Source: a virus
Taxonomy: Duplodnaviria; Caudoviricetes
Virus record (IMG/VR): IMGVR_UViG_3300007747_000009
Coordinates: 32,001 to 96,000 of that record
DNA length: 64,000 nucleotides
Direction: 5' to 3' (one strand)
The notes beneath the pieces were generated by a model. The model was not told the origin of the DNA. It did not search any database and worked only from the letters and a program-made list of their open reading frames with translations. Positions 1,122 through 34,557 of this stretch are shown here, piece by piece. Numbering within the stretch: the first letter of the stretch is position 1; every line of letters begins with the position of its first letter. Made by a program: the position numbers and the translations under genes.

Positions 1122-1610
1122 ATGACACAATTTGAACTGGACATGATGTATTGCGACGATGCAGTTAATGCATTGAAAGCAGTTATTAATAACTTAATTT
1201 ATGACAATACTGATTACCGGCAGGTAACATTAGGGAATACAATTAAGGTATTCTATAAAAGAGATATGGTTATGGGTTTGCACAAAGAGGTAGCATTTGG
1301 AACTACAATGACCGTTAACCGGACGATGCAAATTAACTCACATAATTATAGTTGTATGTTACTTGAATTTAAAGACTCAACTGGTAATGATGTATATAAT
1401 ATTATTCCATCCTCTGCGTATGTTGAAGAACAATACTTTCAAGATAGTTTAATTGTAGACCCTAAGTTCCAGCGGGAACTTCTACTTGTTACCAAAATTG
1501 TTGAATATATTAAAACAACTAAATTCAGTTCAATTGAAATATATCGTGATTACTTACCTATACTTATTGCAGATGTTAAAGCTTTATGGGGTGAATCAAA
1601 TGACATTTGA
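1122..1610 (+). CDS. FQxS-family paralog
   Basis: MTQFELDMMYC...EEQYFQDSLIV; GGAGG RBS. Confidence 0.85.
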   Translation: MTQFELDMMYCDDAVNALKAVINNLIYDNTDYRQVTLGNTIKVFYKRDMVMGLHKEVAFGTTMTVNRTMQINSHNYSCMLLEFKDSTGNDVYNIIPSSAYVEEQYFQDSLIVDPKFQRELLLVTKIVEYIKTTKFSSIEIYRDYLPILIADVKALWGESNDI

Positions 1611-2106
1611 AAAGGATATGGAATACGCGGATCTGGTTGTGGATGCAGTAAGTTGTATTATTGATAATTCCATTTGTAGCAATCATGATTACCGCACGGT
1701 AGAACTGCGTGATTACTTCGAGTTTTTTAAAAATACCAAATGGTTTGGCTCCTTTTATGAAAAAAACCAGTTCTGTATTACCATGAGTTCGTGTAATATG
1801 ATCCAGATTAATATTAATGATGATGTATGTAAATTTATTAATTTTGCAAACTTACTGAATGATACTCCGTCATCTATCATAGCAGATCCTTCAGAATATA
1901 CTGAAGAACATTATTTTCAAGAAAGCTTGATGCTAGATGCAGGGAAGCAACTTGATTTACTTTTGGTATCTAAACTTCGCAATTACCTTAAGACAACAAA
2001 ATATGTTTCAATTGAAATAATGCGTGATTACTTACCTATACTGATTTCAGATGTTAAAGCATTACGGGTTGCATCAAATGACATTTGAAAAAGATATGGA
2101 ATACGC
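1529..2106 (+). repeat. 100-bp direct repeat (1529-1628 / 2007-2106) spanning gene junctions
   Basis: About 10 mismatches in 100 bp by manual alignment. Confidence 0.9.
1600..2088 (+). CDS. FQxS-family paralog
   Basis: MTFEKDMEYA...EEHYFQESLML. Confidence 0.85.
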   Translation: MTFEKDMEYADLVVDAVSCIIDNSICSNHDYRTVELRDYFEFFKNTKWFGSFYEKNQFCITMSSCNMIQININDDVCKFINFANLLNDTPSSIIADPSEYTEEHYFQESLMLDAGKQLDLLLVSKLRNYLKTTKYVSIEIMRDYLPILISDVKALRVASNDI

Positions 2107-2533
2107 TAATAATATACTACGCATTCGCACGGCGATGGAAGATGGTTCTATCGTTGCGAAAGATGGTATTCGTTCATTCTCAACGAACCCAACTACATTT
2201 GAATACATTATGGAATTTTGCGGGGAAGATGTAGTTATCGGATACTTAGAACGTAGAATCACGCGTATGGCTAACTTTGTGACTAGTGGCGAAATATATT
2301 ACGACTATCGCTCTAATCGTATTCACACTAGATTGGCTGATGGTGGTTCACTTGTAGTAAATGTAGACAAAGAAGTAATAGATGAAGCTTGGTATTTTCA
2401 AAACAGTTTAGTCTACAACCATGATGTACTTAGGGCATTGATGGCCGTCAAAACTTTACAGAGTGTTGAATCGAAATATGAATACTTTCAACTTAAAACC
2501 CGTCACATTGACAACATACTATATAGGTTATAA
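2078..2533 (+). CDS. FQxS-family paralog
   Basis: MTFEKDMEYA...EAWYFQNSLVY. Confidence 0.85.
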   Translation: MTFEKDMEYANNILRIRTAMEDGSIVAKDGIRSFSTNPTTFEYIMEFCGEDVVIGYLERRITRMANFVTSGEIYYDYRSNRIHTRLADGGSLVVNVDKEVIDEAWYFQNSLVYNHDVLRALMAVKTLQSVESKYEYFQLKTRHIDNILYRL

Positions 2534-2535
2534 TA

Positions 2536-3018
2536 ATGACACAATTTGAATTGGACTTACATTATGCAAAAAGCATTGTTAAGATATTGGATGCAGCATA
2601 TACCGGTACTTTAGATAACAATGTTCACTTTACTATTAAAAAAAGTGTCCCTGTGCATGAAGAAGATTGGATAGGAATTAAATCCGAATATGGTATTATA
2701 GAATACAATATGAAGGACTCATTTTTCAACAATATGTTATGGTCTAACAAACAACTTCAAATAGAATCAGAATCGAAAAAGTTGTACATAGCGGGTGACA
2801 ATATGGGAACTTCATTTGAATTAATTACTAATCCAGAAGATGAAGCTACATACTTTCAAAATAGTTTAATTTATGAACCTCACATTCATAGTATGTTAAT
2901 TTTGGTAAGCTACATTAACAAATACATTAATAAGAACGATATAAAAAGCGTTAATGTACTTTTGTTAGGGGATGTTGATAAATTTATTACAGCAGCGAAT
3001 ATGATAGGAGAACCGTAA
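2536..3018 (+). CDS. FQxS-family paralog
   Basis: MTQFELDLHYA...EATYFQNSLIY. Confidence 0.85.
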   Translation: MTQFELDLHYAKSIVKILDAAYTGTLDNNVHFTIKKSVPVHEEDWIGIKSEYGIIEYNMKDSFFNNMLWSNKQLQIESESKKLYIAGDNMGTSFELITNPEDEATYFQNSLIYEPHIHSMLILVSYINKYINKNDIKSVNVLLLGDVDKFITAANMIGEP

Positions 3019-3536
3019 TGACACAATTTGAATTGGACTTACAATATGCAAAAGACATGGTTCGTGTCAGGAATGCATTACATGACGGTACTATAGATCC
3101 AGATGCAGTGACTATTACACTGTCGCATGGCGATGAATTAAAATATCAGATAACAGTAAATGATATAGTGGGGGTCTTCGCAACAATAGGTTGCAATGAC
3201 GAATTTGGTCGTCAGGATTCATATGTATCAAAAAAATGGCTACACGATATTCATAGTAATGAAGTTGAACTGCACCGGAATGAACTGCACTGGAATGAAC
3301 GTGCCTTTCCACCATATAAACGTAATTCTGAATGGTCATCCCTTCAAATACAATCTGGATATGATGAAGGGATGTATTTCCAAGATAGCTTGATTTACGA
3401 CAATACTGTACTAAGGAACATTGTTCTCATAAACTATCTTTATGCTAACCCACTTCCTAAACCTTACGATAAATTCATTTTCAATCTATCGTATTTCGAA
3501 CTTGTATTGAACGTATTAGATAGGAAAACAACATGA
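3018..3536 (+). CDS. FQxS-family paralog
   Basis: MTQFELDLQYA...EGMYFQDSLIY. Confidence 0.85.
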   Translation: MTQFELDLQYAKDMVRVRNALHDGTIDPDAVTITLSHGDELKYQITVNDIVGVFATIGCNDEFGRQDSYVSKKWLHDIHSNEVELHRNELHWNERAFPPYKRNSEWSSLQIQSGYDEGMYFQDSLIYDNTVLRNIVLINYLYANPLPKPYDKFIFNLSYFELVLNVLDRKTT

Positions 3537-3985
3537 CACAATATGAACTGGACTTACAGTATGCAAAAGATGTTAGAATCATAATTGAACGTTTTTTGAA
3601 TGATTCACCGAACATTTTTGTTAAAGATAGAGGGCATGATTATCTAAAGTTTTCTCTAAGAGGTGAACCTGTTATAAAATTTAATGATTTTGAGATGATC
3701 AGTACAACCGTAATACAAGACAAAATATTGTCACATGTATTTGGTGCAACAAAAATACAAATAGAACGTCAGTTAGTGTTAGAAACGGATGATATACAAG
3801 TTGGTTGGAAAAATGAAGAACAACATTTCCAGAACTCGTTGATCTATGATGCCAGTACTGTTCGTAGCATTCTTCTATTTTCTTACCTAATGGATCATGC
3901 ACCTTCGAAATATAAACACTTGAGAATTGATCTCAGTATAATTCCTACATTAAAAATACTGTTCGGTCTAAAAAGGAATAGCTAA
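3533..3985 (+). CDS. FQxS-family paralog
   Basis: MTQYELDLQYA...EEQHFQNSLIY. Confidence 0.85.
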   Translation: MTQYELDLQYAKDVRIIIERFLNDSPNIFVKDRGHDYLKFSLRGEPVIKFNDFEMISTTVIQDKILSHVFGATKIQIERQLVLETDDIQVGWKNEEQHFQNSLIYDASTVRSILLFSYLMDHAPSKYKHLRIDLSIIPTLKILFGLKRNS

Positions 3986-4521
3986 TGCAACAAGTGACAC
4001 AATATGAACTGGACTTACAATATGCAAAGAATATCTTACGAATCAGAGATGCATTTATGAATTCAGTACTAGACGATGATCCTAGAATTATCCGTACAAA
4101 ATCAGGTTATTCTTTTTCAATTAGAGATGAATCAGATGAATACTCAGATGAATACTTTGATAAAAGTGATGACATTATAAATGTACAATGCTATGATGAT
4201 GTAGGTCGTGGATCATACACTACTATTATTGATTATGGTGGTATTCTCATTGAAGATGGTGATACTCATATTATGATATCCAAAGATGATTATGGTACTG
4301 GAGTAGAGTACATCTACCCTACTGAGTACGGTGAAGCAGAACATTTTCAACAATCTTTAATTTATGATGAATTTACTAATAGGATGATATTGACTTCTTG
4401 GTATCTATCTAAACACCCAATAGATAAAGATGCACATTATATTTGTGATTTTGATTTAAATCGTTATAATGACATCATTGCAATCTTAGATGAATACAAG
4501 GAAGATAATGACAACGTATAA
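3985..4521 (+). CDS. FQxS-family paralog
   Basis: VTQYELDLQYA...EAEHFQQSLIY. Confidence 0.85.
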   Translation: MQQVTQYELDLQYAKNILRIRDAFMNSVLDDDPRIIRTKSGYSFSIRDESDEYSDEYFDKSDDIINVQCYDDVGRGSYTTIIDYGGILIEDGDTHIMISKDDYGTGVEYIYPTEYGEAEHFQQSLIYDEFTNRMILTSWYLSKHPIDKDAHYICDFDLNRYNDIIAILDEYKEDNDNV

Positions 4522-5050
4522 TGAAGATTTAGAATTTGCAAAGAATTTATTAGCAATATGTAAAGCTACCAAAGAACAGACATTAGATAATAAAAGATTT
4601 AAAATAAATGAGACAAAGTACTGGATTGATTTAAGATTTTCTGCCCTAGAAGATAACGGTGATTACGATCCAAATAATGATGATGACGATGATGACGATT
4701 ATCATTATATAGTTTCAGTTGAACTTGATGGTACAGTAGGTGGTTATGATGGAGAAGATAAAAATTGTTCATATTATACAGAAGATGAATTAATGTTGGA
4801 ATACGGTGATACTGAAATTTTGATTGAAACAATAGAAAATTCATATTTTCGTGAAAAATTACCCACACCAACTGAATATACAGAAGAGATACATTTTCAG
4901 AATTCATTACTATATACAGAATTCCAGAACAGAATCTTATTGGTATGTTGGTATCTTCAGTTAGAAGAGAATAGGATTAACGATGTTTCAGTACTAACAA
5001 TTCCATTTAAAAATATGGAAAATGCAATTAAAATGTTATACGGGAGTTAA
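4508..5050 (+). CDS. FQxS-family paralog
   Basis: MTTYNEDLEFA...EEIHFQNSLLY. Confidence 0.85.
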   Translation: MTTYNEDLEFAKNLLAICKATKEQTLDNKRFKINETKYWIDLRFSALEDNGDYDPNNDDDDDDDYHYIVSVELDGTVGGYDGEDKNCSYYTEDELMLEYGDTEILIETIENSYFREKLPTPTEYTEEIHFQNSLLYTEFQNRILLVCWYLQLEENRINDVSVLTIPFKNMENAIKMLYGS

Positions 5051-5052
5051 CA

Positions 5053-5574
5053 ATGTCATCGTACATAGAAGATTTAGAGTACGCTAAAAAGATATTGAAT
5101 CTTTTGAATAAAATTAAAGATAAAAAAATAGTACACGAACAATTGTTTACACGAACATTAAATTATGGTATATCAAGGACTATAGAGTTTGCATATATTG
5201 TAAGTACTCATAGCACAGTTGTTAGTTTGACAATTGGCAACAGTCAAGACAATTCAACTACAGATTATGAATCGATATGTAATAAAACATCATTAATATT
5301 TGAGTACACTGACACTAAAATTTGGATATGTGACACTGACGATCCGGATATGGATCCAATATCAATGGATATCTTTGATGATTATAGTGAAGAAGTATAT
5401 TTTCAAAACTCACTTATATACTCAGATTTTGTTAACAGAATGTTGTTAATACATTCCTACCTTATGAACCCAACTAATCGTATTAAAGGTATAAGTATTT
5501 TTGAAATATCGTGGTCTAAGATGGATGATGTACTAAAAATTATAGATGAATTAGAGAATCAAAATGACTTATAG
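5053..5574 (+). CDS. FQxS-family paralog
   Basis: MSSYIEDLEYA...EEVYFQNSLIY. Confidence 0.85.
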   Translation: MSSYIEDLEYAKKILNLLNKIKDKKIVHEQLFTRTLNYGISRTIEFAYIVSTHSTVVSLTIGNSQDNSTTDYESICNKTSLIFEYTDTKIWICDTDDPDMDPISMDIFDDYSEEVYFQNSLIYSDFVNRMLLIHSYLMNPTNRIKGISIFEISWSKMDDVLKIIDELENQNDL

Positions 5575-6046
5575 AGAAGATTTAGAGTACGCAAAAAAGA
5601 TATTAAAATTATTACAAGAAACCAATAGTAATGGGTTTAAAGATATAACTAATCTAATGGTTACTGATAATAAAGATGAAAAATATCTTGTAAAACTTGA
5701 TACACGCAATGAAGATGTATTATCACTTTCAAAAAAAGATTCCAAAGATACAAGTAGATCTTCAGACAACTCTGTGTGTTGTACTGATAGTATTATAGTA
5801 GAATATGGAGATAGTTCTATTTGTATTACAGAAAATGATTTTGAGTCTTATATTGAGATTGATTATCCTATTGAGTACACAGAAGAGATACATTTTCAGA
5901 ATTCAACAATATATAACGAAAACCAAAATAGGTTAATTTTGTTGTGTTGGTATTTAAATTTAGAACAAAATAGATTACCGGGGATTATTATGTTTGATTT
6001 ATATTGTGATGCAGTTAATAATCTTCTCCTTGAATTGGGGTATTAA
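5564..6046 (+). CDS. FQxS-family paralog
   Basis: MTYREDLEYA...EEIHFQNSTIY. Confidence 0.85.
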   Translation: MTYREDLEYAKKILKLLQETNSNGFKDITNLMVTDNKDEKYLVKLDTRNEDVLSLSKKDSKDTSRSSDNSVCCTDSIIVEYGDSSICITENDFESYIEIDYPIEYTEEIHFQNSTIYNENQNRLILLCWYLNLEQNRLPGIIMFDLYCDAVNNLLLELGY

Positions 6047-6047
6047 A

Positions 6048-6563
6048 ATGACTTATAATGAAGATTTAGAGTACGCAAAGAATATTCATCGTCTGATAAA
6101 AGCACTAGTTGATAGCAGTGAAGACGAAGGATATAGTTTTATTAGATATGAGGTTAATAGTACTACTTATTCTAATTTTTATTACAAAGAGATAGTTGAA
6201 GGTGACGATCAAAAGATGTATTTTAGAAAGATATTAACTTACATCAATACACCTAATAATAATTTAGTAACTGATAGTACTGGTACTAATTATATTTCTT
6301 TAGAAGATAGATCTACAAGTTACGTGATTAATGTTTCTAAAAATTGTACACAAGAATATACATATAGTACAGAAACATGGAAATCTGAAGAGGAACACTT
6401 TCAAAATTCGTTGATCTATGATGATGATACGAATAGGAACATTTTAGTTATGAAGTACATTAAGGATCATTTTCCTTCTAATATGAAGTACTTAAGAATG
6501 CAACTTAACGAGCGTATTATCACAGAATTGTTCAAAAGGATACTACCGGATGTTATCGACTGA
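6048..6563 (+). CDS. FQxS-family paralog
   Basis: MTYNEDLEYA...EEEHFQNSLIY. Confidence 0.85.
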   Translation: MTYNEDLEYAKNIHRLIKALVDSSEDEGYSFIRYEVNSTTYSNFYYKEIVEGDDQKMYFRKILTYINTPNNNLVTDSTGTNYISLEDRSTSYVINVSKNCTQEYTYSTETWKSEEEHFQNSLIYDDDTNRNILVMKYIKDHFPSNMKYLRMQLNERIITELFKRILPDVID

Positions 6564-7158
6564 AACGGATATAATGCAGTACATTTATAAGATGGAAAAG
6601 GTATTGACTTTTTTGAATACCTTTGATACAAGTAAATGCAATACGTTATCTTATCCAATCAATGAAAAATTTGAGATACGCATTTCTTCGAGTGAATCGA
6701 ATCAACAATGGATTGAGATATTTAGACCAGATGTAACGGATAATGTCAATTCCCTTGACACAAGGGATGGATTGGGATATCATGTGATTAAGACCTACCC
6801 TAGTGGTCTTAGGAACATAGAAGTTATGTCATATTACAATGACGATTTCTATAATGAGTTTATGTTTCACGAATCGAAAAATAGTAGTTCATTAAGAACC
6901 ACGGTTGCCCATGAGATGAAGGATGAAATTATAGAGTTAGCACAGTACGATTTGAGTACAGAAGAGGGTAGATTTCAGCTTAGTTTAATGTACAGTTTAC
7001 AAGTTGTGAATATATTATCTATTCATCAATATTTTTACAACAAACAAGTACAACCTTTTAGCTGTTGGTTTCATAGTGAGTTCAATGAATTATATGAGGT
7101 ATTAGATGACAAATACAAATTTAGAATTAGCACAGAAGCTGAAGGTACTAACACATAA
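6550..7158 (+). CDS. FQxS-family paralog
   Basis: EEGRFQLSLMY. Confidence 0.8.
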   Translation: MLSTETDIMQYIYKMEKVLTFLNTFDTSKCNTLSYPINEKFEIRISSSESNQQWIEIFRPDVTDNVNSLDTRDGLGYHVIKTYPSGLRNIEVMSYYNDDFYNEFMFHESKNSSSLRTTVAHEMKDEIIELAQYDLSTEEGRFQLSLMYSLQVVNILSIHQYFYNKQVQPFSCWFHSEFNELYEVLDDKYKFRISTEAEGTNT

Positions 7159-7669
7159 ATTTCATGCTAATCCAGATGTATTGTTTGAGTACTATAATCT
7201 TAAAATTCATAGTTGGGATCAGACCCTTGCTGCTGAGAACCAAATTCATATTTTACGCAATGCAGATTTACAAGTACTCATTAGTACAGGAGGGAAAGAT
7301 TCTAAAGAGTTGTGTAAGAGTTATATTTTATTGGATGGTTCACATATTATAAAGTACCCCGGACATTCAGAACATCCTAATAACAATGTATTACATGCAT
7401 TTGATAAGAAGAGTGATTTTTTCAATTTAAAAGACAATAGATATGATTTATCTATTCCACCGGAAAATGAAGAAGAGTTTTTGTTCCAGCAGAGTTTAGT
7501 ACTACCATCGTTTGTGTACGATTCATTTGAATTGATGTTGTATATACGTAGGACGACGAATTTACCGTTTATGGTAAATTTAAAATTATTGAATATCGAT
7601 GAGGCATTAGGGGTTTATGATGAACAAAAATATGGTATCAGTGAAGAAATTAATATTTTTAAGTTATGA
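7106..7669 (+). CDS. FQxS-family paralog
   Basis: EEFLFQQSLVL. Confidence 0.8.
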   Translation: MTNTNLELAQKLKVLTHKFHANPDVLFEYYNLKIHSWDQTLAAENQIHILRNADLQVLISTGGKDSKELCKSYILLDGSHIIKYPGHSEHPNNNVLHAFDKKSDFFNLKDNRYDLSIPPENEEEFLFQQSLVLPSFVYDSFELMLYIRRTTNLPFMVNLKLLNIDEALGVYDEQKYGISEEINIFKL

Positions 7670-7670
7670 G

Positions 7671-8198
7671 ATGCTAGCAAATTCAACGAAGGGTGAAAAG
7701 ATAGCTTTTTTAGCACAATCATTTTATGACAATCCAGAATTATTATGTAATACAATGGATTTTGAATATCATGATCATCACATGACGGATCAGTACGGGT
7801 ATGATGTTACCGGTCGTGAATTTTATGCTGCAATGAATAATGATACGGGTTCTATTATTATAAGTGTTGGTGAGTATCATAATAGTGAGGATATGAGCAG
7901 GTGGAAATTTGATCCATTCAAAAATGACATATTAACATTTCATACCAACCCGGATTGTAATGAATTTAATTATTCATATGAGACATTGGGACATAAAGAT
8001 GTATTTTATTTGGATGATGAATTATTTTCGAGTGAAGAGGGTTTATTCCAACAGAGTACAATATTGTGCGATGTAGCTTTTGAAACCCTAGAGATATATT
8101 TGCATTTACGCAGAGAATGCAGTATTCCGTTCAAGATGAATTTATCATTATTTGATTTAGATGCAGCAGTGAGGGTATATATAGATGCAGCTCAATAA
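7671..8198 (+). CDS. FQxS-family paralog
   Basis: EEGLFQQSTIL; C-terminus matches the previous gene (PFxxNLxLxxxDxA). Confidence 0.8.
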   Translation: MLANSTKGEKIAFLAQSFYDNPELLCNTMDFEYHDHHMTDQYGYDVTGREFYAAMNNDTGSIIISVGEYHNSEDMSRWKFDPFKNDILTFHTNPDCNEFNYSYETLGHKDVFYLDDELFSSEEGLFQQSTILCDVAFETLEIYLHLRRECSIPFKMNLSLFDLDAAVRVYIDAAQ

Positions 8199-8763
8199 CA
8201 TTCAAACATTTGGCGAATTGTGCGAGTACGTAGATGATGTAATTAAATTATTAGAATTATGTTACAATAACAGAACACATGAGATGTTAATCATTAATGG
8301 TGTAGTAAAATTTGGTGGTTATAACAACGGTATAGATTACAGATTTTCATTATTTGGACAGGAGTTTGGAGCATATTGTTTTTATAATTTAGATCCAGAT
8401 GATTATTCATGGGTTAATATTACAGAATGGAATAGGATTGATTATTACATTTTCAGACAAGAGAACATAGATTTCTTTGAAATGACCATGTTCGAAAAAC
8501 CAAAGACAACGGTATTAGGAAAAGAAAAGTGTGAATTTGATTTTTTGAATTTATCATCCTGTACAGAAGAGATGTATGAACAATTACAATACCTACATGA
8601 TCCTGAAATAGTAAAATCTATTATGATAATGAGTTTGTTTTACAGAAAAGGTCATAAACAGTTTGCGTTTTACGACCACACAAATTGTGATCCAAAGAAG
8701 ATGTACGATGCAATTAAGGATATGATTAATGAATTTCCATGCAACAAAGTTATTAGCGGATGA
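8185..8763 (+). CDS. FQxS-family paralog (EEMYEQLQY variant)
   Basis: CTEEMYEQLQYLH. Confidence 0.8.
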   Translation: MQLNNIQTFGELCEYVDDVIKLLELCYNNRTHEMLIINGVVKFGGYNNGIDYRFSLFGQEFGAYCFYNLDPDDYSWVNITEWNRIDYYIFRQENIDFFEMTMFEKPKTTVLGKEKCEFDFLNLSSCTEEMYEQLQYLHDPEIVKSIMIMSLFYRKGHKQFAFYDHTNCDPKKMYDAIKDMINEFPCNKVISG

Positions 8764-9162
8764 AATTATTGAGTTCAGTAGATTATGCAATATAATCAAG
8801 GACACGGTTATTCCAAGTACAGTTCAGTACGGACCTAATTCTGTACATAATTTTTTCTCTTCATCAGGTATGAGAATAGATCTAAGATTGTACAATGATG
8901 GTAGTATTGATTATGCGTTTAGTTATAGAGGTGCAAATTTTTGTACATGGGAACGAGTTGATGTTGCATTAAATCAACATGGTAATTCATATGTATATAA
9001 TTATTCTTCTTCATCGGGAAGTTATGTTGCTTTCAAGTACACAAATATGGGTTCAGATGAAATGGAATATATTGCAACCTACCAACCTATAGAAAATATT
9101 ACAATTCCTGTATTAAAATTATGTGAATGTACAGAAGAGATGTATGAACAATTACAATACCT
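8560..9162 (+). repeat. 35-bp exact direct repeat (8560-8594 / 9128-9162)
   Basis: TGTACAGAAGAGATGTATGAACAATTACAATACCT occurs twice and encodes the family motif. Confidence 0.9.
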
Positions 9163-9307
9163 TCACCCTAATGAGATAGTACATAGTCTTTTTATTGTAT
9201 CATTAATGCAGGCATATGGGGTTATTGGGATATTCAACACAAATACAGTTGAAGGTGATGATATGAATACAATTAATAAGAAATTGAGGATGGTACATGA
9301 CGCGTAA
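8729..9307 (+). CDS. FQxS-family paralog (EEMYEQLQY variant)
   Basis: CTEEMYEQLQYLH. Confidence 0.8.
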   Translation: MNFHATKLLADEIIEFSRLCNIIKDTVIPSTVQYGPNSVHNFFSSSGMRIDLRLYNDGSIDYAFSYRGANFCTWERVDVALNQHGNSYVYNYSSSSGSYVAFKYTNMGSDEMEYIATYQPIENITIPVLKLCECTEEMYEQLQYLHPNEIVHSLFIVSLMQAYGVIGIFNTNTVEGDDMNTINKKLRMVHDA

Positions 9308-9758
9308 TGAATTTGATTATAATAAATCAAAAGAGTATTGTGAAAAAATATTATATATTATTAAAACGTATCCTAAAATTAGACAGAAGTTCATTGAACA
9401 TCCATATGAAGCCAGTAGCTCTTTATTTTATGCAAATATGGATGATCAAACATGGACATGGGATAGTATAGTATTTGATAAAAAATTCAATTTCGAGTAT
9501 TTTAACAATAAGAATCATTTTGTTATGTACGATGGTTGGGATGCTACATCCAATACCTATTGGACCCCTGAACAATTAGAGGATGAGGGATTTTTATTTC
9601 AGCAGTCTTTGGCGTTTGATTATCATATGATGTTTAGTATATGTTGTGTGTCGTGGTTACATGCAATGGAAATTAGCAATTTATATATAGTCTGTGATGT
9701 ATCGCCCGAAGATCTTCATATCATGTACCAAGACGCGGTGGTGTATAACAATGTATAG
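9297..9758 (+). CDS. FQxS-family paralog
   Basis: EGFLFQQSLAF. Confidence 0.8.
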   Translation: MTRNEFDYNKSKEYCEKILYIIKTYPKIRQKFIEHPYEASSSLFYANMDDQTWTWDSIVFDKKFNFEYFNNKNHFVMYDGWDATSNTYWTPEQLEDEGFLFQQSLAFDYHMMFSICCVSWLHAMEISNLYIVCDVSPEDLHIMYQDAVVYNNV

Positions 9759-10395
9759 CCCTTTAATTAGAGTAGTAGATGCATTTGAGAAATGTACCAG
9801 TACAGAATTGAAGTTTAAAAGTTCTGTAAAAATTGGAAGTGTTAAGATCGACGGTAAAGAGTATGGTGTACGCATCAAGAAAGTATATGATAAAGCTGGA
9901 GAAAAACCGGGATATCGTTGTGAGTTGAAGATGGAAGTACCGACGAGTAGTGGTTTATTATATGTATCGATTGCAGATTTTATATCATATACGGAGTTCG
10001 AAGTAAACATGTCTCCGAGTTTATTATTTTCGGATAAGTTTTTAGGATGTTATGCATCCCCTGATTATAATTTTAAATCCCCGATGAAGATATCATGTGG
10101 AATTGATTTTATGTTAGAAGGTAATATTAGTACAGAAATGTATAATGCATTTGAGCGGGAATTATTCATGCATAACATTGCTTGCAGATCAGGTGAAGTA
10201 ATTGATGATGTGCTTATGTTAGATTTATATCAAATTATATTAGACCTTTTGAGTACACCTCATCGTGAGATTACGGGGTTGGAGTTATTACACACCACCG
10301 TTTACGTAAACAATTACACGAAGGTTAAGATACCGTACGATGCTATTGCTGAGTTGATTGAAGAATATAATCGTATATTTCAAAAGGATAAATAA
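9751..10395 (+). CDS. hypothetical protein, possibly a divergent family member
   Basis: Long ORF; only a degenerate motif (ERELFMHN). Confidence 0.7.
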   Translation: MYSPLIRVVDAFEKCTSTELKFKSSVKIGSVKIDGKEYGVRIKKVYDKAGEKPGYRCELKMEVPTSSGLLYVSIADFISYTEFEVNMSPSLLFSDKFLGCYASPDYNFKSPMKISCGIDFMLEGNISTEMYNAFERELFMHNIACRSGEVIDDVLMLDLYQIILDLLSTPHREITGLELLHTTVYVNNYTKVKIPYDAIAELIEEYNRIFQKDK

Positions 10396-10536: not shown

Positions 10537-11106
10537 ATGTTATTAGCAGAATGTAGTAAGTATGATATTTTTAAGATGACCGAGGCATTAAAGATGTTTC
10601 ATGCTATATCGTACGATGTATCAGCTATTTCCAAAGCGAATAGATACTTTAAAAAGTTCCCCAAAATACATTGTACAATTGATTTATATGATAATATGGT
10701 AATTATGATGAATGATAAGTTCAGGGATGATAAATTCCTCTCTGAATCTATGATGGTATCATTTCGTAAATCCCCGAGTATAGCTGCGGGTAGAATTAAT
10801 CAACTACCCAAACATCAGTCAATTATAATTGAACACGCAGTGAATGAAAGTCTTTTTTTCGAAAACAAATTAATATTTTCTAGTGCTTCAGAAGTGCCAG
10901 TACTAGAGAATGAAGATGAACTATTTCAGAACCGTTTGTTGTATACTGAATCTGAACTTAATGCCATATATATCTACCACAACTTTGATGAAATTATAGT
11001 AGAAGCCGGATCCTATCTTAGGATTTGCGAAAAATATTATGATGATTTTATTAAACTCTATGACCATTTAGATGAACTAAGGGACTTGATGTATGATATC
11101 AAATGA
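10537..11106 (+). CDS. FQxS-family paralog
   Basis: EDELFQNRLLY. Confidence 0.8.
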   Translation: MLLAECSKYDIFKMTEALKMFHAISYDVSAISKANRYFKKFPKIHCTIDLYDNMVIMMNDKFRDDKFLSESMMVSFRKSPSIAAGRINQLPKHQSIIIEHAVNESLFFENKLIFSSASEVPVLENEDELFQNRLLYTESELNAIYIYHNFDEIIVEAGSYLRICEKYYDDFIKLYDHLDELRDLMYDIK

Positions 11107-12773: not shown

Positions 12774-12816
12774 TTGACTTAGGGCGGTGTACATGTTACA
12801 CTGCCCTTTCTATTTT
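12774..12816 (+). promoter_or_regulatory. internal array promoter nested in a terminator hairpin
   Basis: TTGACT 12774-12779, 17 bp, TG-T-TACACT 12794-12802; stem AGGGCGGTGT/ACACTGCCCT then a T-rich tail. Confidence 0.7.
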
Positions 12817-28146: not shown

Positions 28147-28163
28147 TACTTAAAGGGGAACAA

Positions 28164-28781: not shown

Positions 28782-28899
28782 GTGTAAACATTACTGGGAA
28801 GAAGACCATCGTCCCGGTTCTAACTACGGTGGCTATTGCTGCCGTAAATGTGGTTCTTCTGCAAAGAATCCTTGGGAGGATAAAAATGCCAAAAACTGA
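28771..28899 (+). CDS. small Cys/His-rich (Zn-finger-like) protein
   Basis: CKHYW...CRKCG. Confidence 0.55.
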   Translation: MTNKCKHYWEEDHRPGSNYGGYCCRKCGSSAKNPWEDKNAKN

Positions 28900-29786: not shown

Positions 29787-29937
29787 AGAAAGATGTCCGT
29801 ACTGCCATACTGACGTTGAAACGTATGAGTACTTTACTGAGTGCGTAGGACAGTACGGGAGAAATGTTGTATCCCATACTGTCTGTACTGAATGTGGTGA
29901 GCAACTAAAAGAAAAATTAGTTGACAAGGATATCTAG
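29770..29937 (+). CDS. small Zn-ribbon protein (55 aa)
   Basis: AAGGAG RBS; CPYC...CTEC; not in the ORF track. Confidence 0.65.
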   Translation: MDQPSRERCPYCHTDVETYEYFTECVGQYGRNVVSHTVCTECGEQLKEKLVDKDI

Positions 29938-29963
29938 CCTGTTATAATACAGGCTATATTTTT
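29921..29963 (+). promoter_or_regulatory. sigma70 promoter whose -10 box is the loop of a hairpin
   Basis: TTGACA 29921-29926; TAGCCTGT-TATAAT-ACAGGCTA 29935-29956, then a T-rich tail. Confidence 0.8.
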
Positions 29964-29980: not shown

Positions 29981-30556
29981 ATGACATTTGAAGAAGCAGA
30001 TTATGCAAACTTTAACAACGCATTGGAATCTTTCGAATTTCTAATAAGTAAAAGTTCAGAAAATGAACCATTGAACCATATTGGTTTTTATAACAAAAAT
30101 GACAGGTACTCTAGAACTGATGAAACTGAAACTCATCAGATTTATTACCGTCTAAAAACGAAACCTTCCATTATTGCGTATAATAAAGCAATATCTATGT
30201 CTCTGTTTTCGTTTGAATCATTTAATATTGGATTATTAACAAGTACTAATTTAATCCGGTATAATTGTTATGAAAATAATTGGATGATTCGTATTGAAAC
30301 AAACAATACTAAATTCACAATAATAGATAGTACTGAAAAGATTGAGCTGGATATAACAAGTGAAGCCGATTTATTTCAGTTCACTCTTCTATGTCCATCA
30401 TTTCCAGAGTACTTATTTGATTTTGCAAGAAAATCTATGCATCTTATTAGTACATCTGATGATATTAATAAAGTACTTTTAAAAAGTGAACGTTGTATTA
30501 TAGATTTAGGTATTGCGAATTTAAGAGAAGAGTACAATAGAGTTTATAAGGAGTAG
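29981..30556 (+). CDS. FQxS-family paralog (second cluster)
   Basis: MTFEEADYA...EADLFQFTLL. Confidence 0.8.
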   Translation: MTFEEADYANFNNALESFEFLISKSSENEPLNHIGFYNKNDRYSRTDETETHQIYYRLKTKPSIIAYNKAISMSLFSFESFNIGLLTSTNLIRYNCYENNWMIRIETNNTKFTIIDSTEKIELDITSEADLFQFTLLCPSFPEYLFDFARKSMHLISTSDDINKVLLKSERCIIDLGIANLREEYNRVYKE

Positions 30557-30588
30557 TAAGGCAGGTTTAATCACAAGGAATGTGAACG

Positions 30589-31320
30589 ATGTTAGATCGA
30601 ATTAAATTTGCTATGGAGTTATCCAACGAATTGAACATGGGTAGTTTTCAAGCACTAAATCCAATTATGGCTGAATACGCAACTGCGGCGGCAACGGCTG
30701 GGGTACAGTGTGGACAAGCAAACCTATTGGCAGATGTTTATAGTGAAGCACAGAGTACTCAATACTCGGTTAAATCCTATAAAGATAAGTTCGTTGGAAT
30801 GTATATGAATGGGGAAGTACAAGAAGAAAGACGCTTCACTGATTTTATTATTGAACGCCGTGTTTCTGGTGTATCTAATCCGAATGCTGAACCAGATAAA
30901 GTACTTGAAGAAGTACTACAAGATATCATGGAAAATGAGCAAAAGAGTAAGGAAAAGTATAATGTACAGAGTACTGAAACAGTGTTATTAGGTTATTCGG
31001 AAGATGACAAGTACTTCTATTTCAGGTTAACTGAAGTTCCATATGTATACGATTTTCCAAGTAGTGTAAGTGAAAAGAATTTTACTGAACGTAGTAAAAA
31101 CTTTCATAAGCACGAAGGAAATAGAAGAAGTATTGATGGGTATAATGAAGATGGTGTACAGGTGTACGAATGGGTGCATCCTAATAATTCAACATATACA
31201 CGTTGTTTGAAGAAGCGTTATGATTTACAAGATGCAGATTCATTTTACTTCAAAATAGAAAAACAAAAATATCTAAGACCTGATGAAAGTACTCTAATGG
31301 GTATGGTTTCATTGATGTAA
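30589..31320 (+). CDS. hypothetical protein
   Basis: Long ORF. Confidence 0.8.
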   Translation: MLDRIKFAMELSNELNMGSFQALNPIMAEYATAAATAGVQCGQANLLADVYSEAQSTQYSVKSYKDKFVGMYMNGEVQEERRFTDFIIERRVSGVSNPNAEPDKVLEEVLQDIMENEQKSKEKYNVQSTETVLLGYSEDDKYFYFRLTEVPYVYDFPSSVSEKNFTERSKNFHKHEGNRRSIDGYNEDGVQVYEWVHPNNSTYTRCLKKRYDLQDADSFYFKIEKQKYLRPDESTLMGMVSLM

Positions 31321-31327
31321 TTTTTAT

Positions 31328-31354
31328 GTACACGGTTCGCCGTGTACTATTTTT
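31328..31354 (+). terminator. intrinsic terminator with a UUCG loop
   Basis: GTACACGG-ttcg-CCGTGTAC-TATTTTT. Confidence 0.8.
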
Positions 31355-31370
31355 AATTAACGGAGATTTT

Positions 31371-31670
31371 ATGAGTTATAATATTCGAATGGTTCCTAAT
31401 GATGTATGGTTTCAAATAGAAGCGAAATATGTTGATCATAATTCAGTAGTGTATAAAAAACCGGAAGGTAAGAGTTATACATTATTCGACTATGTTACTG
31501 TTGGTGACACTACTGTACAATCTACCCCTGACACTAAATTTTTATATTCAGGTAATCATAACTACCAAAGTATATCTAGTTCTACTGTATTTTGGATTAA
31601 AGCCAGTTTAAATGATATATATGAATTAGTTGATGAAATTGATTCTATGGGAAGCGACTGGGATAAATGA
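31371..31670 (+). CDS. hypothetical protein
   Basis: GGAG RBS before ATG 31371. Confidence 0.75.
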   Translation: MSYNIRMVPNDVWFQIEAKYVDHNSVVYKKPEGKSYTLFDYVTVGDTTVQSTPDTKFLYSGNHNYQSISSSTVFWIKASLNDIYELVDEIDSMGSDWDK

Positions 31671-32218
31671 TTATGTATAGTGAAAACATTAAAGTACTTC
31701 TTGATTTATATAAGTTGTTTTTCAATCACGAGTTACAGTCTACTCTTATGTTGAATGAACCAGAAATTATGTATAAATTAGATGGTTTAAATAGAATTCA
31801 CTGGACTGGTCATTTTCTAAAAATAATTATTGATAATTATCCAATTACTATTGGTCCAAATCTTCTACCACAACAACACGAATCAGTTAATTTTAAAAAT
31901 GTAGCTTCTTTCTTAACTAAAAGATTAACAATAGTTTTAAACTCTCCAAATTTATATACTAATATCGGAGATGAACTTATAAGTACTCATTCCTTTCTGA
32001 ACGAAGAGGTACATTTCCAGTACTCTACGGTAATTAACATTCCAGATTTAGATATAATTCAGGATATGTGTTACGTCTGTGATGAAATTATAAAAATGAA
32101 TTTGTACTATTCTGGTACATATCAAGTTCCATACCAATTTAATTTAAAATCAATTCTCAGGTATTTGAAGAAAACATATCCAGAGAAAGACGGACACCAT
32201 TGGAGTTTAGATGATTAG
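31667..32218 (+). CDS. FQxS-family paralog
   Basis: EEVHFQYSTVI. Confidence 0.8.
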   Translation: MIMYSENIKVLLDLYKLFFNHELQSTLMLNEPEIMYKLDGLNRIHWTGHFLKIIIDNYPITIGPNLLPQQHESVNFKNVASFLTKRLTIVLNSPNLYTNIGDELISTHSFLNEEVHFQYSTVINIPDLDIIQDMCYVCDEIIKMNLYYSGTYQVPYQFNLKSILRYLKKTYPEKDGHHWSLDD

Positions 32219-32795
32219 TTTAAATGAACTGAAAAGTATTTTAGACACTACTTATGATATTATAAAATATGGCGAATCTTCCAAAAAAACTGAGTGCATT
32301 GAGGAAATAAATTCAGGAATTCTTCATCAACATTATATAACATATACAAGTCGTTTTCATGATAAAATGAAACCATCATATCAGTACTACAGCAGAGATT
32401 CAGAATCGAATAGAGGGGACTGTTTAATTTCTGAAATTGTAATTGAATCATATACCGAAGAAGATAACATTGGTATTTCATATATTTTTATTAAGAATGA
32501 TGGAGCATATGAATTAAATCTTTTTCCAAAAAGTATTGATGAAATTCAATTTAGAGTACCCGGATATAAAGTACTACTTAGTGAAATACTTAATGATCCT
32601 GCACTTCTTTTTCAGATTAGTACATTACATGAAGTTCCTGAAATTGAATTTTTATTAAATTTAAGTACTATTGTACAAGAACTAAAAATTAAAATGATGA
32701 ACTATAAGTATAAAACTTATTGCTCTATTACAAAAAAGATGCCCTCTAATAATTATATTCATAAATTTCATGATAAGATGGAAGGTAAATTATAA
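32211..32795 (+). CDS. FQxS-family paralog
   Basis: PALLFQISTLH. Confidence 0.8.
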   Translation: MISLNELKSILDTTYDIIKYGESSKKTECIEEINSGILHQHYITYTSRFHDKMKPSYQYYSRDSESNRGDCLISEIVIESYTEEDNIGISYIFIKNDGAYELNLFPKSIDEIQFRVPGYKVLLSEILNDPALLFQISTLHEVPEIEFLLNLSTIVQELKIKMMNYKYKTYCSITKKMPSNNYIHKFHDKMEGKL

Positions 32796-33389
32796 ATGAT
32801 TGATTTCAAAAATTTATACCATATGATAAATTGTAGTTTAGATGCAATGGAAGAAGGTAAATTTGTTAGTGACATCTTTGAACATTCAGTAATTGATTCT
32901 AATAATATAACTCATAGACATAAACTTGTGTATATAAAAAGCAAAGATAAATTATCCCCGCTTTATTCATATAGGTCGAATAGTGCTAGTACTAAATCTT
33001 TTAATTATACAATTGAAGAATACAATAAAGACGCATCACACTATCCCGCAACCGATACCAATTTATATATTTCGATGGATAAAGATTACAAATCATTCGC
33101 GTTGTATCCGAATAAACTAGATGATATTAAAGTAACACTAGTTGAAAATAATATGGTTCAGGCTGAATTAAATTTGAACGATCTACTTCACGAAGAATAT
33201 CATTTTCAAACTAGTACTATATATAATCTTCCTAGCTATGATTTATTGTATGATTTTTCTAAAATGATACAGAAATTAAGAGGGAGATTATTAAACAAAA
33301 ACTATAAAATAGTAGGGAGATTGCCTACTGTGATAACCAATAACTATTCAGAAGAATTTCTTACAAAAATAATAAGGATTAACTCGTGA
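32796..33389 (+). CDS. FQxS-family paralog
   Basis: EEYHFQTSTIY. Confidence 0.8.
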   Translation: MIDFKNLYHMINCSLDAMEEGKFVSDIFEHSVIDSNNITHRHKLVYIKSKDKLSPLYSYRSNSASTKSFNYTIEEYNKDASHYPATDTNLYISMDKDYKSFALYPNKLDDIKVTLVENNMVQAELNLNDLLHEEYHFQTSTIYNLPSYDLLYDFSKMIQKLRGRLLNKNYKIVGRLPTVITNNYSEEFLTKIIRINS

Positions 33390-33910
33390 CCAATAGAGAT
33401 GTTAAATCAATGGTGGTGTACCTTCATGATCTTTATCTTGAATCATTAACGAATACCGATCCTTTCCATGAAGAGATTATTGGTACATGTAAATTATCAG
33501 TAACACACAAACAATGTACTATCACGGAACAAAGTCCCGTTAAAATGAAAATAGCACTACTAGATGGAATTAGTGATATCTATTCAAAAATATTCTGTAA
33601 TAAGTCATTTCCTAGTATAGTTATTTCTCCGGGGTCGTACAATAAGGTGGTTATTATGGGGGGTGAATTGAAAAAGCACAAACCCGTAGGTACTGAATCT
33701 GATGATATAACCATTGATATTATGAATTTGGATGAATCTATGTTATTTCAACTAAGTACTGTAAGAGAAATTCCAGACATTTCGGTATTCGAAAAGATAC
33801 AAAAATATTATGAATCTCTTTATAAATTTTGTTCCATGTACAAAAAAACTCTTATTTTAAATCTTTCAATGAATTGGGACGATATTTTTAGCACAGGAGA
33901 AGAGAAATGA
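33386..33910 (+). CDS. FQxS-family paralog
   Basis: ESMLFQLSTV. Confidence 0.8.
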   Translation: MTNRDVKSMVVYLHDLYLESLTNTDPFHEEIIGTCKLSVTHKQCTITEQSPVKMKIALLDGISDIYSKIFCNKSFPSIVISPGSYNKVVIMGGELKKHKPVGTESDDITIDIMNLDESMLFQLSTVREIPDISVFEKIQKYYESLYKFCSMYKKTLILNLSMNWDDIFSTGEEK

Positions 33911-34557
33911 AAAATATACAATCTTTATTATTTTATTTTGAAATGATCAATCAATGGCGTGGATTTTCAAATATGCAGAGCATATTTTCACTAACCCCTA
34001 GTGTCAAATATGCTAAGATGTTTGACGAAGTATATTACGGTTTAAGTCATGAACAAAGTAAGTACGAACTATATATTACTTCTAATAAAAATACTGGTGC
34101 TATTGGTTTTATGGTTGAAGACAGGGATTTAAACGCTCCAGTACTATTTGGTAATCTTCAGGATTGGGGAAATTCTACTAGAATGTATCCAGAATGGATG
34201 AAGGTTCAAATGGAATCAACACAATTAGCTTTTTATGATAAAAATAATAAAATAATAATGAACGTAGATCCTGAAATATTGGAAGAAGAACACTTCCAAC
34301 TAATGATGATTCATGATTTACCACCATTCGAAACATTACATAAAGCAATTGATGTTAATAATTACTTACGACCAATAGCTAAGAAACACAAAATTGGATT
34401 TTCAATAGATTATGCACATCTAGATATGGACTTTACTTATTTTTTTCCTAGTAATAAAGCATTCGATATTATCGATTCTGTATATGGTAATGCATTACAA
34501 TTATATTATGAGGCAGAAGAACATGGCAATCCCTTCAACTACTACGTTATATCATGA
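33907..34557 (+). CDS. FQxS-family paralog
   Basis: EEEHFQLMMIH. Confidence 0.8.
   Translation: MKNIQSLLFYFEMINQWRGFSNMQSIFSLTPSVKYAKMFDEVYYGLSHEQSKYELYITSNKNTGAIGFMVEDRDLNAPVLFGNLQDWGNSTRMYPEWMKVQMESTQLAFYDKNNKIIMNVDPEILEEEHFQLMMIHDLPPFETLHKAIDVNNYLRPIAKKHKIGFSIDYAHLDMDFTYFFPSNKAFDIIDSVYGNALQLYYEAEEHGNPFNYYVIS

What the first reader, a model, noticed from the sequence alone, without database searches (positions are those of the whole stretch)
1122..34557. About 40-member tandem library of proteins with a constant motif and variable cores
Seen: ~35 consecutive, translationally coupled genes (1122-20986) and six more (29981-34557) encode 150-230 aa proteins. Their central ~100 aa look unrelated between distant members, yet nearly all carry E-E-x-[YHL]-F-Q-x-[ST]-x-[ILV]-[YH] about 40-80 aa from the C-terminus. 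The first 11 genes also share an MTx[FY]ExD[LM]xYA-like start. The array sits behind a consensus early promoter and fills about a third of the window. Inference: a constant scaffold or docking element with diversified binding surfaces, meaning an early-expressed repertoire of adaptors or inhibitors (conceptually like poxvirus ankyrin/F-box arrays) aimed at many host or defence targets. I cannot assign it to a named family.
Basis: partly seen in the sequence, partly recalled or inferred. Interest (0 to 1): 0.9.

Follow-up and report, generated by a model that had tools for sequence, protein, structure and literature searches.

The report
Jumbo-phage early paralog array, orphan fold
About 40 back-to-back genes in this RaK2/121Q-type jumbo phage encode fast-evolving versions of one small acidic protein whose predicted fold matches no solved structure; similar arrays sit unannotated in published relatives, and what they do is untested (my best guess is that they bind or inhibit host proteins early in infection).

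Summary
The window is part of a 109-kb IMG/VR contig from a RaK2/121Q/Munch-like jumbo myophage.

- **Family size:** 34 plus-strand genes form one family by iterative and leave-one-out HMMs. Five more are probable members by motif and two are degenerate, so about 40 in all.
- **Motif:** E-E-x-[YHL]-F-Q-x-S occurs in 30 of 44 array ORFs, against 0.35 expected. The Q is invariant in 149 aligned homologues.
- **Fold:** with a deep alignment AlphaFold2 gives a confident model (pLDDT 89.5). It runs N-terminal helix, seven-stranded antiparallel sheet, then helices that include the motif. Nothing in the PDB matches (best Z 3.0; Foldseek E 0.38). Only uncharacterised proteins of RaK2-like phages match.
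- **Relatives:** collinear arrays exist in Munch, RaK2 and phAPEC6. Hua et al. 2017 mentioned 121Q's array in one sentence.
- **Not virion proteins:** no member is in the phAPEC6 virion proteome, and RaK2's array lies outside its structural clusters.
- **Evolution:** orthologues are 22-44% identical against 39-83% for neighbours. Pooled dN/dS is 0.44 against 0.18, and copy number of the first subfamily varies.

Function is inferred only: probably early host-binding or anti-defence proteins. The motif looks more like a largely buried structural helix than a docking site. Earlier scan notes cover this same stretch, not other DNA.

The parts
1066..1094 (+). sigma70-type promoter-like site (TTGACA-17-TATACT, TG extended) in the 220-nt (900-1122) gap ahead of the array
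   Evidence: consensus match only
1122..6563 (+). Subfamily 1: 11 firm members (starts 1122, 1600, 2078, 2536, 3018, 3533, 3985, 4508, 5053, 5564, 6048) sharing an MTQFELDLQYAK-like N-terminal helix. Expanded in this lineage.
   Evidence: All best-hit Munch 054/055. Window-only clades in the tree.
6550..9758 (+). 6 firm members (6550, 7106, 7632, 8185, 8729, 9297), including two duplicated pairs
   Evidence: Orthogroups with Munch, G001 and G002.
9751..10395 (+). Possible degenerate member (Q replaced; ERELFMHN at the motif position)
   Evidence: Not collected by HMM or hhalign. Collinear orthologue in Munch.
10537..12772 (+). 4 firm members (10537, 11093, 11674, 12242)
12781..12807 (+). 11-bp-stem hairpin followed by a T-rich run, terminator-like. 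It splits the array into at least two transcription units.
12829..13425 (+). Probable member (VIEFQSS at the motif position)
   Evidence: Collinear Munch orthologue. Not reached by HMM.
13422..14596 (+). 2 firm members (13422, 14063)
14589..15110 (+). Possible degenerate member (EELLFTLS, Q replaced by T)
15080..15667 (+). Firm member
15664..16344 (+). Probable member (ESEFQAS)
   Evidence: 35% identical to its collinear Munch orthologue.
16325..16891 (+). Member, weak in the leave-one-out test (E 0.004)
16891..17298 (+). Embedded non-family gene (135 aa, phrog_11632, function unknown), much better conserved than its neighbours
   Evidence: 61% identical to Munch_075. dN/dS 0.12. No Pfam or PDB-sequence match.
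17270..19606 (+). 4 members (17270, 17862, 18445, 18995). 17270 is supported only through BLAST links to its neighbours.
19599..20066 (+). Embedded non-family gene (155 aa, phrog_15293)
20038..20502 (+). Probable member (EINFFQYT)
20486..20986 (+). Firm member, last gene of the first block
29921..29948 (+). 12/12 sigma70 consensus promoter-like site with TG, ahead of the second cluster
29981..30556 (+). Probable member (EADLFQFT)
   Evidence: hhalign probability 50%, motif, hit with the A2 HMM
30589..31670 (+). Two non-family genes (30589-31320, phrog_16105; 31371-31670)
31673..32218 (+). Firm member
32211..32795 (+). Probable member (PALLFQIS)
   Evidence: BLAST links to 18995 and 32796. hhalign probability 35%.
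32796..34557 (+). 3 firm members (32796, 33386, 33907). The last overlaps the RNA ligase gene.
34523..37337 (+). Context, not part of the family: T4 Rnl1-type RNA ligase (34523-35674) and Pnkp-type kinase/phosphatase (36393-37337). This is the classical tRNA-repair counter-defence pair.

Best explanation
The region is an old, collinear tandem family of about 40 genes found in the enterobacterial RaK2/121Q/Munch group of jumbo myophages.

Shown here:
- All members encode one small (150-216 aa), acidic, single-domain protein without fusions.
- The predicted fold has no counterpart among solved structures. It runs N-terminal amphipathic helix, seven-stranded antiparallel meander sheet, then a helical C-terminal part.
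- The EExxFQxS helix in that C-terminal part is the best conserved element.
- The genes overlap head to tail and lie downstream of sigma70-consensus sites.
- Members are absent from the published virion proteomes of relatives.
- Orthologues keep their order between phages but diverge far faster than neighbouring genes. Recent amino-acid changes and insertions concentrate in the sheet half.
- Copy number changes by local duplication, above all at the promoter-proximal end.

Inferred:
- Host RNA polymerase transcribes the genes early in infection.
- Each member acts as a stoichiometric binder or inhibitor of a different host protein (take-over or anti-defence target), using the variable sheet face.
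- The motif helix mainly holds the fold together rather than docking onto a common partner.
For: - One family: iterative HMM collects 34 ORFs; leave-one-out succeeds for 33 of 34; Q is invariant and F is kept in 95% of 149 sequences.
- Fold: model at pLDDT 89.5 and pTM 0.86. The only significant structural matches are RaK2, 121Q, GAP32, SP27, Yersinia, Erwinia and Serratia jumbo-phage proteins.
- No fusions: all 141 representative hits among 1.84 billion proteins are 68-216 aa.
- Early-type context: promoter-like sites. The CBB paper places RpoD-like promoters in the equivalent region and calls it early (PMC5259590).
- Not structural: phAPEC6 members lie within gp404c-gp460c, and none is among the 62 virion proteins found by mass spectrometry (PMC7247149). 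RaK2's array lies within ORF412-440, outside both structural clusters (PMC3622015).
- Fast evolution: orthologues are 22-44% identical to Munch against 39-83% for the following genes. Against a close relative, pooled dN/dS is 0.44 versus 0.18, Fisher p 0.011, with changes densest in the sheet part.
- Copy number: orthogroups across genomes plus window-only and phAPEC6-only clades.
- Charge: all 34 members are acidic, median pI 4.95 against 5.57 for other ORFs.
- Neighbourhood: Dam methylase, T4 Rnl1 and Pnkp.
Against: - There is no experimental or expression evidence for timing or function. Promoter-like sites in this AT-rich DNA are no more frequent than in shuffles.
- dN/dS is below 1, so positive selection is not shown. 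It rests on one close relative and about 160 substitutions.
- No known anti-defence or defence family matches.
- Four invariant or near-invariant polar residues (E, E, Q, S) on a mostly enclosed helix are unusual for a purely structural role. They could mark a ligand or partner site.
- Virion proteomes can miss low-copy proteins.
- The fold is predicted, not solved.
Confidence: 0.45

Rival explanations
1. Adaptor library. The conserved helix and the N-terminal helix form a docking module for one common partner, such as a host protease or a phage enzyme. The variable sheet recruits different targets to it.
For: - The polar residues E, E, Q and S are conserved far beyond what a fold alone usually needs.
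- Two well conserved non-family genes are embedded in the array (16891-17298 and 19599-20066) and could encode such a partner.
Against: - Conserved positions occupy about 240 degrees of the motif helix, leaving only two variable positions. That fits a largely buried helix (inference).
- No partner candidate has a recognisable function.
- No fusion to any effector domain occurs anywhere in 1.84 billion proteins.
Confidence: 0.15
2. Small-molecule or nucleotide binders (sponges), or enzymes. The invariant E/E/Q/S/Y cluster would be a ligand or catalytic pocket, and the sheet variability would be neutral drift.
For: - The Gln is invariant, and Glu, Ser and Tyr are near-invariant across all 149 homologues.
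- The proteins are small and acidic, as phage sponge proteins are (own knowledge).
Against: - About 40 paralogues kept in conserved order, each with its own orthologue, are hard to explain by a single ligand.
- There is no match to any known sponge, enzyme or ligand-binding fold.
Confidence: 0.1
3. Genome filler. Tandem duplication expanded the genome to fill a larger head, as Hua et al. 2017 suggested for 121Q, and the copies have little individual function.
For: - Hua et al. interpret 121Q's array as genome expansion by duplication (PMC5646251).
- Constraint is relaxed relative to neighbours.
Against: - All frames are intact and tightly packed.
- Pooled dN/dS of 0.44 still shows purifying selection.
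- Individual orthologues are retained in the same order across genera despite 55-78% sequence divergence.
- There are no long near-identical DNA repeats, so the duplications are old.
Confidence: 0.1
4. Virion-packaged internal or ejected proteins, like the T4 IP proteins, delivered with the DNA to disarm the host.
For: - Part of the family shares a conserved N-terminal peptide, loosely recalling T4 capsid-targeting sequences (own knowledge).
- phAPEC6 has an inner body whose proteins are not assigned (PMC7247149).
Against: - None of gp404c-gp460c is among the 62 phAPEC6 virion proteins.
- RaK2's array lies outside its structural clusters.
- The array has sigma70-type rather than late-type promoter-like sites.
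- The N-terminal peptide is modelled as an integral helix of the fold.
Confidence: 0.05

Closest known systems
[quoted passage not shown] 2017, mBio, PMC5646251), and the unannotated arrays within RaK2 ORF412-440, Munch 054-081 and phAPEC6 gp404c-460c
   Same: - Same protein family by HMM.
- Same position and gene order, downstream of a region of small early-type genes and ahead of the Dam / RNA-repair region.
- Same motif.
   Different: - The window's phage is a separate, uncultivated lineage, about 75% nucleotide identity in DNA ligase and none detectable in the array.
- Its first subfamily has 11 copies, against 2 in Munch.
- The literature gives one sentence and no family definition, fold or function. 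'Very similar' does not describe these 15-35% identical proteins.
Poxvirus multigene families of host-response inhibitors (Bcl-2-like A46/A52/B14/K7/N1; ankyrin/PRANC arrays)
   Same: Works-like analogy only (own knowledge). Many paralogues of one fold have sequences diverged beyond easy recognition. They sit in variable genome regions, are expressed early, and each binds a different host protein.
   Different: No sequence or fold relation. No ankyrin, F-box or Bcl-2 signal appears in Pfam or the fold searches. Function here is untested.
p32 / gC1qBP / MAM33 family (PDB 1p32)
   Same: Same order of secondary-structure elements (N-terminal helix, seven consecutive antiparallel strands, C-terminal helices) and strong acidity.
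   Different: E 0.38, TM 0.20, rmsd 18.8 A. It is not among the VIA rows with Z of 2 or more. No sequence similarity. Not evidence of homology.
T4-type internal head proteins (IPI-III), a hypervariable locus
   Same: Small, fast-evolving, lineage-variable phage proteins aimed at host defences (own knowledge).
   Different: Those proteins are packaged in the head and made late. Members of this family are not found in virion proteomes of relatives, and they have early-type promoter-like sites.

Membership tests
RaK2/121Q-type jumbo-phage tandem paralog family (no Pfam entry; split over PHROGs 9317, 12674, 34017, 22855, 32531 and others) | Profile-level homology to the array genes of published RaK2-like phages | tested here: met
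   The window-derived HMMs hit 23-54 ORFs clustered in Munch, RaK2, phAPEC6 and two complete IMG/VR genomes. Members hit 11 PHROGs of unknown function.
RaK2/121Q-type jumbo-phage tandem paralog family (no Pfam entry; split over PHROGs 9317, 12674, 34017, 22855, 32531 and others) | Same genomic position and collinear orthologues | tested here: met
   Best hits in Munch run in the same order as in the window and are followed by the same conserved genes. Orthogroups appear in the tree.
RaK2/121Q-type jumbo-phage tandem paralog family (no Pfam entry; split over PHROGs 9317, 12674, 34017, 22855, 32531 and others) | E-E-x-x-F-Q-x-S helix with invariant Q | tested here: met
   Q is kept in 149 of 149, F in 142 of 149, the first E in 134 of 149 and S in 120 of 149. 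Q is at 100% in the 141 representatives.
Virion internal / ejected proteins (T4 IP-like) | Presence in purified virions | tested here: not met
   I mapped the arrays in phAPEC6 (within gp404c-460c) and RaK2 (within ORF412-440). Neither range contains any entry of the published virion proteomes. This comes from relatives, not from this phage.
Virion internal / ejected proteins (T4 IP-like) | N-terminal targeting peptide removed by the prohead protease | not testable with these tools
   The N-terminus is modelled as an integral helix at pLDDT 94. Cleavage itself cannot be tested here.
Poxvirus-type ankyrin / F-box (PRANC) adaptor arrays | Ankyrin repeats plus a C-terminal F-box-like domain | tested here: not met
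   No Pfam family at E of 0.1 or less in 10 members. The fold is a single alpha/beta domain.
p32 / MAM33 fold | Superimposable helix, seven-strand sheet and helices, forming a trimeric doughnut | tested here: inconclusive
   Foldseek top row, but E 0.38 and TM 0.20. Not listed by VIA-align at Z of 2 or more. Oligomer state could not be tested.
SUKH / polyimmunity-type immunity proteins | Match to SUKH (SMI1_KNR4 and related) models or fold | tested here: inconclusive
   No Pfam match, and no such chain among the fold-search rows. Absence from fold lists does not exclude it.
Known anti-phage defence proteins (PADLOC) | Match to any PADLOC model | tested here: not met
   0 of 34 members match.

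The most novel reading that the evidence does not exclude
The family is a natural binder library on a fold not yet seen in any solved structure. A conserved helical keystone carries a hypervariable seven-stranded sheet. Each of the roughly 40 early proteins would neutralise a different host defence or housekeeping protein, and local duplication at the promoter-proximal end would supply new specificities. That would make it the largest anti-host paralogue repertoire known in a phage, and a bacterial-virus counterpart of the poxvirus immune-evasion families.
Probability: 0.3. Interest if true: 0.85.

Novelty: new member of a known kind. Interest (0 to 1): 0.6.

Why it matters
RaK2/121Q-type jumbo phages are repeatedly isolated as therapy candidates against E. 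coli, Salmonella, Klebsiella and Erwinia. Yet 5-8% of each genome is this one unannotated family.

This work defines the family with one HMM where PHROGs has 11 fragments. It shows that the family has a confident predicted fold without a solved relative. It also shows that the proteins are non-structural and fast evolving. Together these turn some 25-55 'hypothetical proteins' per genome into a single testable question.

If the members are host-protein inhibitors, they are a ready source of new anti-defence or growth-inhibitory proteins and of a new binding scaffold. If they are not, the conserved E/E/Q/S site on an orphan fold is still a worthwhile structural target.

Tried and rejected
- **Named families:** Pfam (10 members sampled), PADLOC, a PDB-sequence profile search and the ESM Atlas gave nothing.
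- **Fold searches:** run with two models, including an exhaustive one. Best Z was 3.4 and 3.0; best Foldseek E was 2.9 and 0.38.
- **tblastn:** one member against 50,697 phage records found no match. The family is too diverged for single-sequence search.
- **Protease-site idea:** E-x-x-Y-F-Q-x-S recalls the TEV/3C recognition sequence. I rejected it because the motif is modelled as a helix in the most confident part of the fold, S is at P2' rather than P1', and no 3C-like protease is evident (inference).
- **Active accordion or gene conversion:** DNA repeats do sit on the motif and on the N-terminal helix, but they are only 55-210 nt at 60-88% identity. That is protein-level conservation in old duplicates.
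- **Single-sequence hhalign** of the uncollected array genes was too weak to settle their membership.
- **RNA genes:** no tRNA or Rfam family in the region.
So oligomer state and expression could not be examined.

Full report
**What the window is.** The window is bases 32001-96000 of a 108,897-bp IMG/VR viral contig that CheckV rates about 31% complete. Megablast finds only short, roughly 75% identical stretches, such as DNA ligase, in Salmonella phages 7t3, SE_PL and Munch, Klebsiella phage fENko-Kae01, Erwinia phage Hallingskeid and the PBECO4/121Q group of coliphages. The array DNA has no nucleotide match at all. The source is therefore an uncultivated member of the enterobacterial RaK2-like jumbo myophages (about 350 kb, about 33% GC).

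**Checking the observation.**
- Genes: 37 plus-strand genes run from 1122 to 20986 and eight more from 29981 to 34557.
- Packing: with my chosen gene starts (by RBS and family alignment), 31 of 36 junctions in the first block overlap and three have gaps of 1-2 nt. The exceptions are a 141-nt gap at 10395/10537 and a 56-nt gap at 12772/12829. The second holds an 11-bp-stem hairpin with a T-rich tail.
- BLAST links only small groups of these genes. An iterative HMM started from the first group converges on 34 ORFs, all of them in these two blocks.
- Self-inclusion is not the reason. In leave-one-out tests 33 of 34 members score above the best of 49 non-array ORFs, and 32 have E below 0.001.
- Five further genes carry the motif at the right distance from the C-terminus: 12829, 15664, 20038, 29981 and 32211. 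Two look like degenerate members with the Q replaced: 9751 and 14589. Four are unrelated: 16891, 19599, 30589 and 31371.
- The motif [ED]xxxFQx[STCQ] is present in 30 of 44 array ORFs. Residue shuffles give a mean of 0.35 and a maximum of 4 in 1000 trials, and only 1 of 50 other ORFs has it.
- 'About 40 members' and 'a third of the window' (38%) are both right.

**One fold, not unrelated cores.**
- A profile search of 1.84 billion representative proteins found 141 clusters at E of 0.001 or less. All are 68-216 aa, and none is fused to another domain.
- In these clusters, and in a 149-sequence alignment (A2), the Q is invariant. F is kept in 95%, the first E in about 90% and S in about 81%.
- With the 34 window paralogues alone, AlphaFold2 gave a middling model at pLDDT 75. 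With A2 it gave a confident one for the 150-aa member 3533-3982, at pLDDT 89.5 and pTM 0.86.
- The order of elements is helix 3-24, seven antiparallel strands 28-84, helices 85-91, 95-104 (the motif) and 107-122, strand 129-133, and helix 134-143.
- Conservation follows the fold. Hydrophobic positions recur with helical periodicity in the first helix and alternate in the strands. Insertions pile up between the first helix and strand 3 and at the C-terminus. The sheet surface is otherwise free to vary.
- In the motif helix, eight of ten positions are conserved and only two (97 and 101) vary. The helix is therefore probably enclosed on most sides. This is my inference from periodicity, because I could not inspect the coordinates.

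**No known relative.**
- No Pfam family matched among the 10 members scanned, and no PADLOC model matches any of the 34.
- PHROGs splits the 34 members over 11 families, all of unknown function.
- A profile search of PDB sequences gave nothing below E 0.085. The ESM Atlas gave no usable hit.
- Fold searches with both models found no solved structure. The exhaustive VIA-align search peaked at Z 3.4 and Z 3.0, where the tool states that unmatched models typically reach 7-8. Foldseek's best E-values were 2.9 and 0.38.
- The top Foldseek row for the good model is human p32. It shares the helix, seven strands, helices order and the acidity, but at TM 0.20 this is no evidence of relationship.
- Against predicted viral structures, all nine matches at E of 0.001 or less, and nearly all named rows in the list, are uncharacterised proteins of RaK2-like jumbo phages: RaK2, 121Q, GAP32, SP27, Yersinia fHe-Yen9-03/04, Erwinia pEa_SNUABM_47 and Serratia BF.

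**The array is conserved in published genomes.**
- In Munch, the short match just upstream of the array leads into 28 consecutive 134-220 aa 'hypothetical proteins' (CPT_Munch_054 to 081). The window's HMM recognises them.
- RaK2 has its cluster within ORF412-440. phAPEC6 has its cluster within gp404c-gp460c.
- With one model (A2, E of 0.001 or less) the counts are 35 in this contig, 25 and 23 in two complete IMG/VR genomes, 23 in Munch and 33 in RaK2. phAPEC6 gives 54 at E of 0.01 or less.
- The literature I could search contains only passing remarks. The RaK2 paper says about 10% of its proteins are paralogues (PMC3622015). The CBB paper recognised 22 paralogous ORFs (PMC5259590). Hua et al. 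[quoted passage not shown] A 2026 review repeats this (PMC13282480).
- I found no family definition, structure or function. Two further literature searches and a check of another genome paper found none either.

**How it evolves.**
- Best hits of the window genes in Munch run in the same order along both arrays. Identities are 22-44%. The genes that follow the array are 39-83% identical, and the two embedded non-family genes are 58-61% identical.
- A tree of 106 members from five genomes is poorly resolved, with a median terminal branch of 1.28 changes per site. It still recovers several cross-genome orthogroups with support of 95% or more. It also shows window-only clades inside subfamily 1 and a phAPEC6-only clade.
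- All eleven subfamily-1 genes of the window best-hit Munch 054 or 055. The subfamily clade of the tree holds 11 window genes, 2 from Munch and 4 each from the two IMG/VR genomes.
- DNA repeats between paralogues are short (55-210 nt) and 60-88% identical, so the duplications are not recent.
- An 11.7-kb contig from a close relative (L004) allows a direct rate comparison. Twelve family genes pool to dN/dS 0.44 (103 non-synonymous and 57 synonymous changes). Nine neighbours pool to 0.18 (20 and 27 changes). Fisher p is 0.011.
- Amino-acid changes are densest in the sheet part (0.05-0.08 per site) and rarest in the C-terminal helices (0.006-0.04).
- This is relaxed or partly diversifying selection on a purifying background. 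It does not demonstrate positive selection.

**What the proteins are not.**
- Table 1 of the phAPEC6 paper lists 62 virion proteins found by mass spectrometry. None lies between gp347 and gp549, so none is an array member.
- The RaK2 paper maps all detected structural proteins to two clusters, named ORFs 038-139 and 527-533, far from ORF412-440.

**Context and likely role.**
- A TTGACA-17-TATACT site with extended TG lies 28 nt before the first gene. A perfect 12/12 site lies ahead of the second cluster.
- Promoter-like sites overall are no commoner than in shuffled DNA, so only their intergenic placement carries weight.
- The CBB authors found RpoD-like promoters concentrated in the equivalent region and proposed that it is the early, host-take-over region.
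- Between and after the two clusters lie a Dam methylase, a cytidylyltransferase-like protein, a weak HD-domain match (below Pfam's cut-off), a T4 Rnl1-type RNA ligase and a Pnkp-type kinase/phosphatase. By established T4 biology, the last two are the counter-measure to anticodon nucleases.
- All 34 members are acidic, with net charge -1 to -25 and median pI 4.95 against 5.57 for other ORFs (p 0.00014).
- The features taken together are: small, acidic, non-structural, single-domain, probably early, fast evolving, variable in copy number, but with each orthologue retained. The reading that fits best is a repertoire of stoichiometric binders or inhibitors of host proteins, with the variable sheet as the working face. 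I put this at about 0.45.
- Rivals, with my odds: the shared-partner adaptor model (0.15), a ligand or enzyme site at E/E/Q/S (0.10), functionless filler (0.10) and virion proteins (0.05).

**Limits.** Function, timing and oligomer state are all inferred. The fold is a prediction. The selection analysis rests on one close relative. Earlier notes of this scan describe this same stretch from overlapping windows, not other DNA. I checked three of them:
- The RNA-repair neighbourhood is confirmed.
- The DNA microhomologies on the motifs are real, but conserved coding sequence explains them.
- The ADP-ribosyltransferase reading of 16891-17298 found no support.

**Verdict.** This is a real and striking feature, correctly observed. 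It is a new member of an array type that already exists in published jumbo-phage genomes and has been mentioned but never analysed. The new contributions are a unifying profile, a confident orphan-fold model, the non-virion status, collinear orthology with lineage-specific expansion, and the rate contrast with neighbours.

Noticed in passing
window 16891-17298: A 135-aa non-family gene is embedded in the array and overlaps both neighbours. It is far better conserved than they are (61% identical to Munch_075, dN/dS 0.12). It belongs to phrog_11632, function unknown.
   Followed up: partly
window 19599-20066 and 21037-21510: Two more well conserved genes of unknown function lie in and just after the array (58% and 75% identical to Munch; phrog_15293 and phrog_16362). 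They stand out against the fast-evolving family.
   Followed up: partly
window 34523-35674 and 36393-37337: A T4 Rnl1-type RNA ligase and a Pnkp-type polynucleotide kinase/phosphatase (a tRNA-repair counter-defence pair) lie directly after the second cluster. The last family gene overlaps the ligase start by 35 nt.
   Followed up: yes
window 26790-29572: A Dam-type N6-adenine methylase (26790-27317), a cytidylyltransferase-like protein (27310-27846) and a protein with a weak HD-domain match, below Pfam's cut-off (28886-29572), lie between the two clusters. RaK2 has the same methylase and cytidylyltransferase order (ORF447-448).
   Followed up: partly
window 25546-26241: This is the only long ORF-free stretch of the region. 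It begins with a strong bidirectional hairpin at 25565-25593 (11-bp stem). No Rfam family reaches its gathering score. Another note of this scan proposes an ncRNA here.
   Followed up: partly
window 23930-24709: This is the only non-array ORF of 50 that carries the [ED]xxxFQx[STCQ] pattern. It is a 259-aa protein, 42% identical to Munch_087, and was not collected by the family HMMs. Probably chance.
   Followed up: no
phAPEC6 (MK817115) 50-71 kb; RaK2 162-224 kb: Weak family-HMM hits (E 1e-5 to 1e-2) lie outside the main arrays in these published genomes. They may be further very divergent members or a related second family.
   Followed up: no
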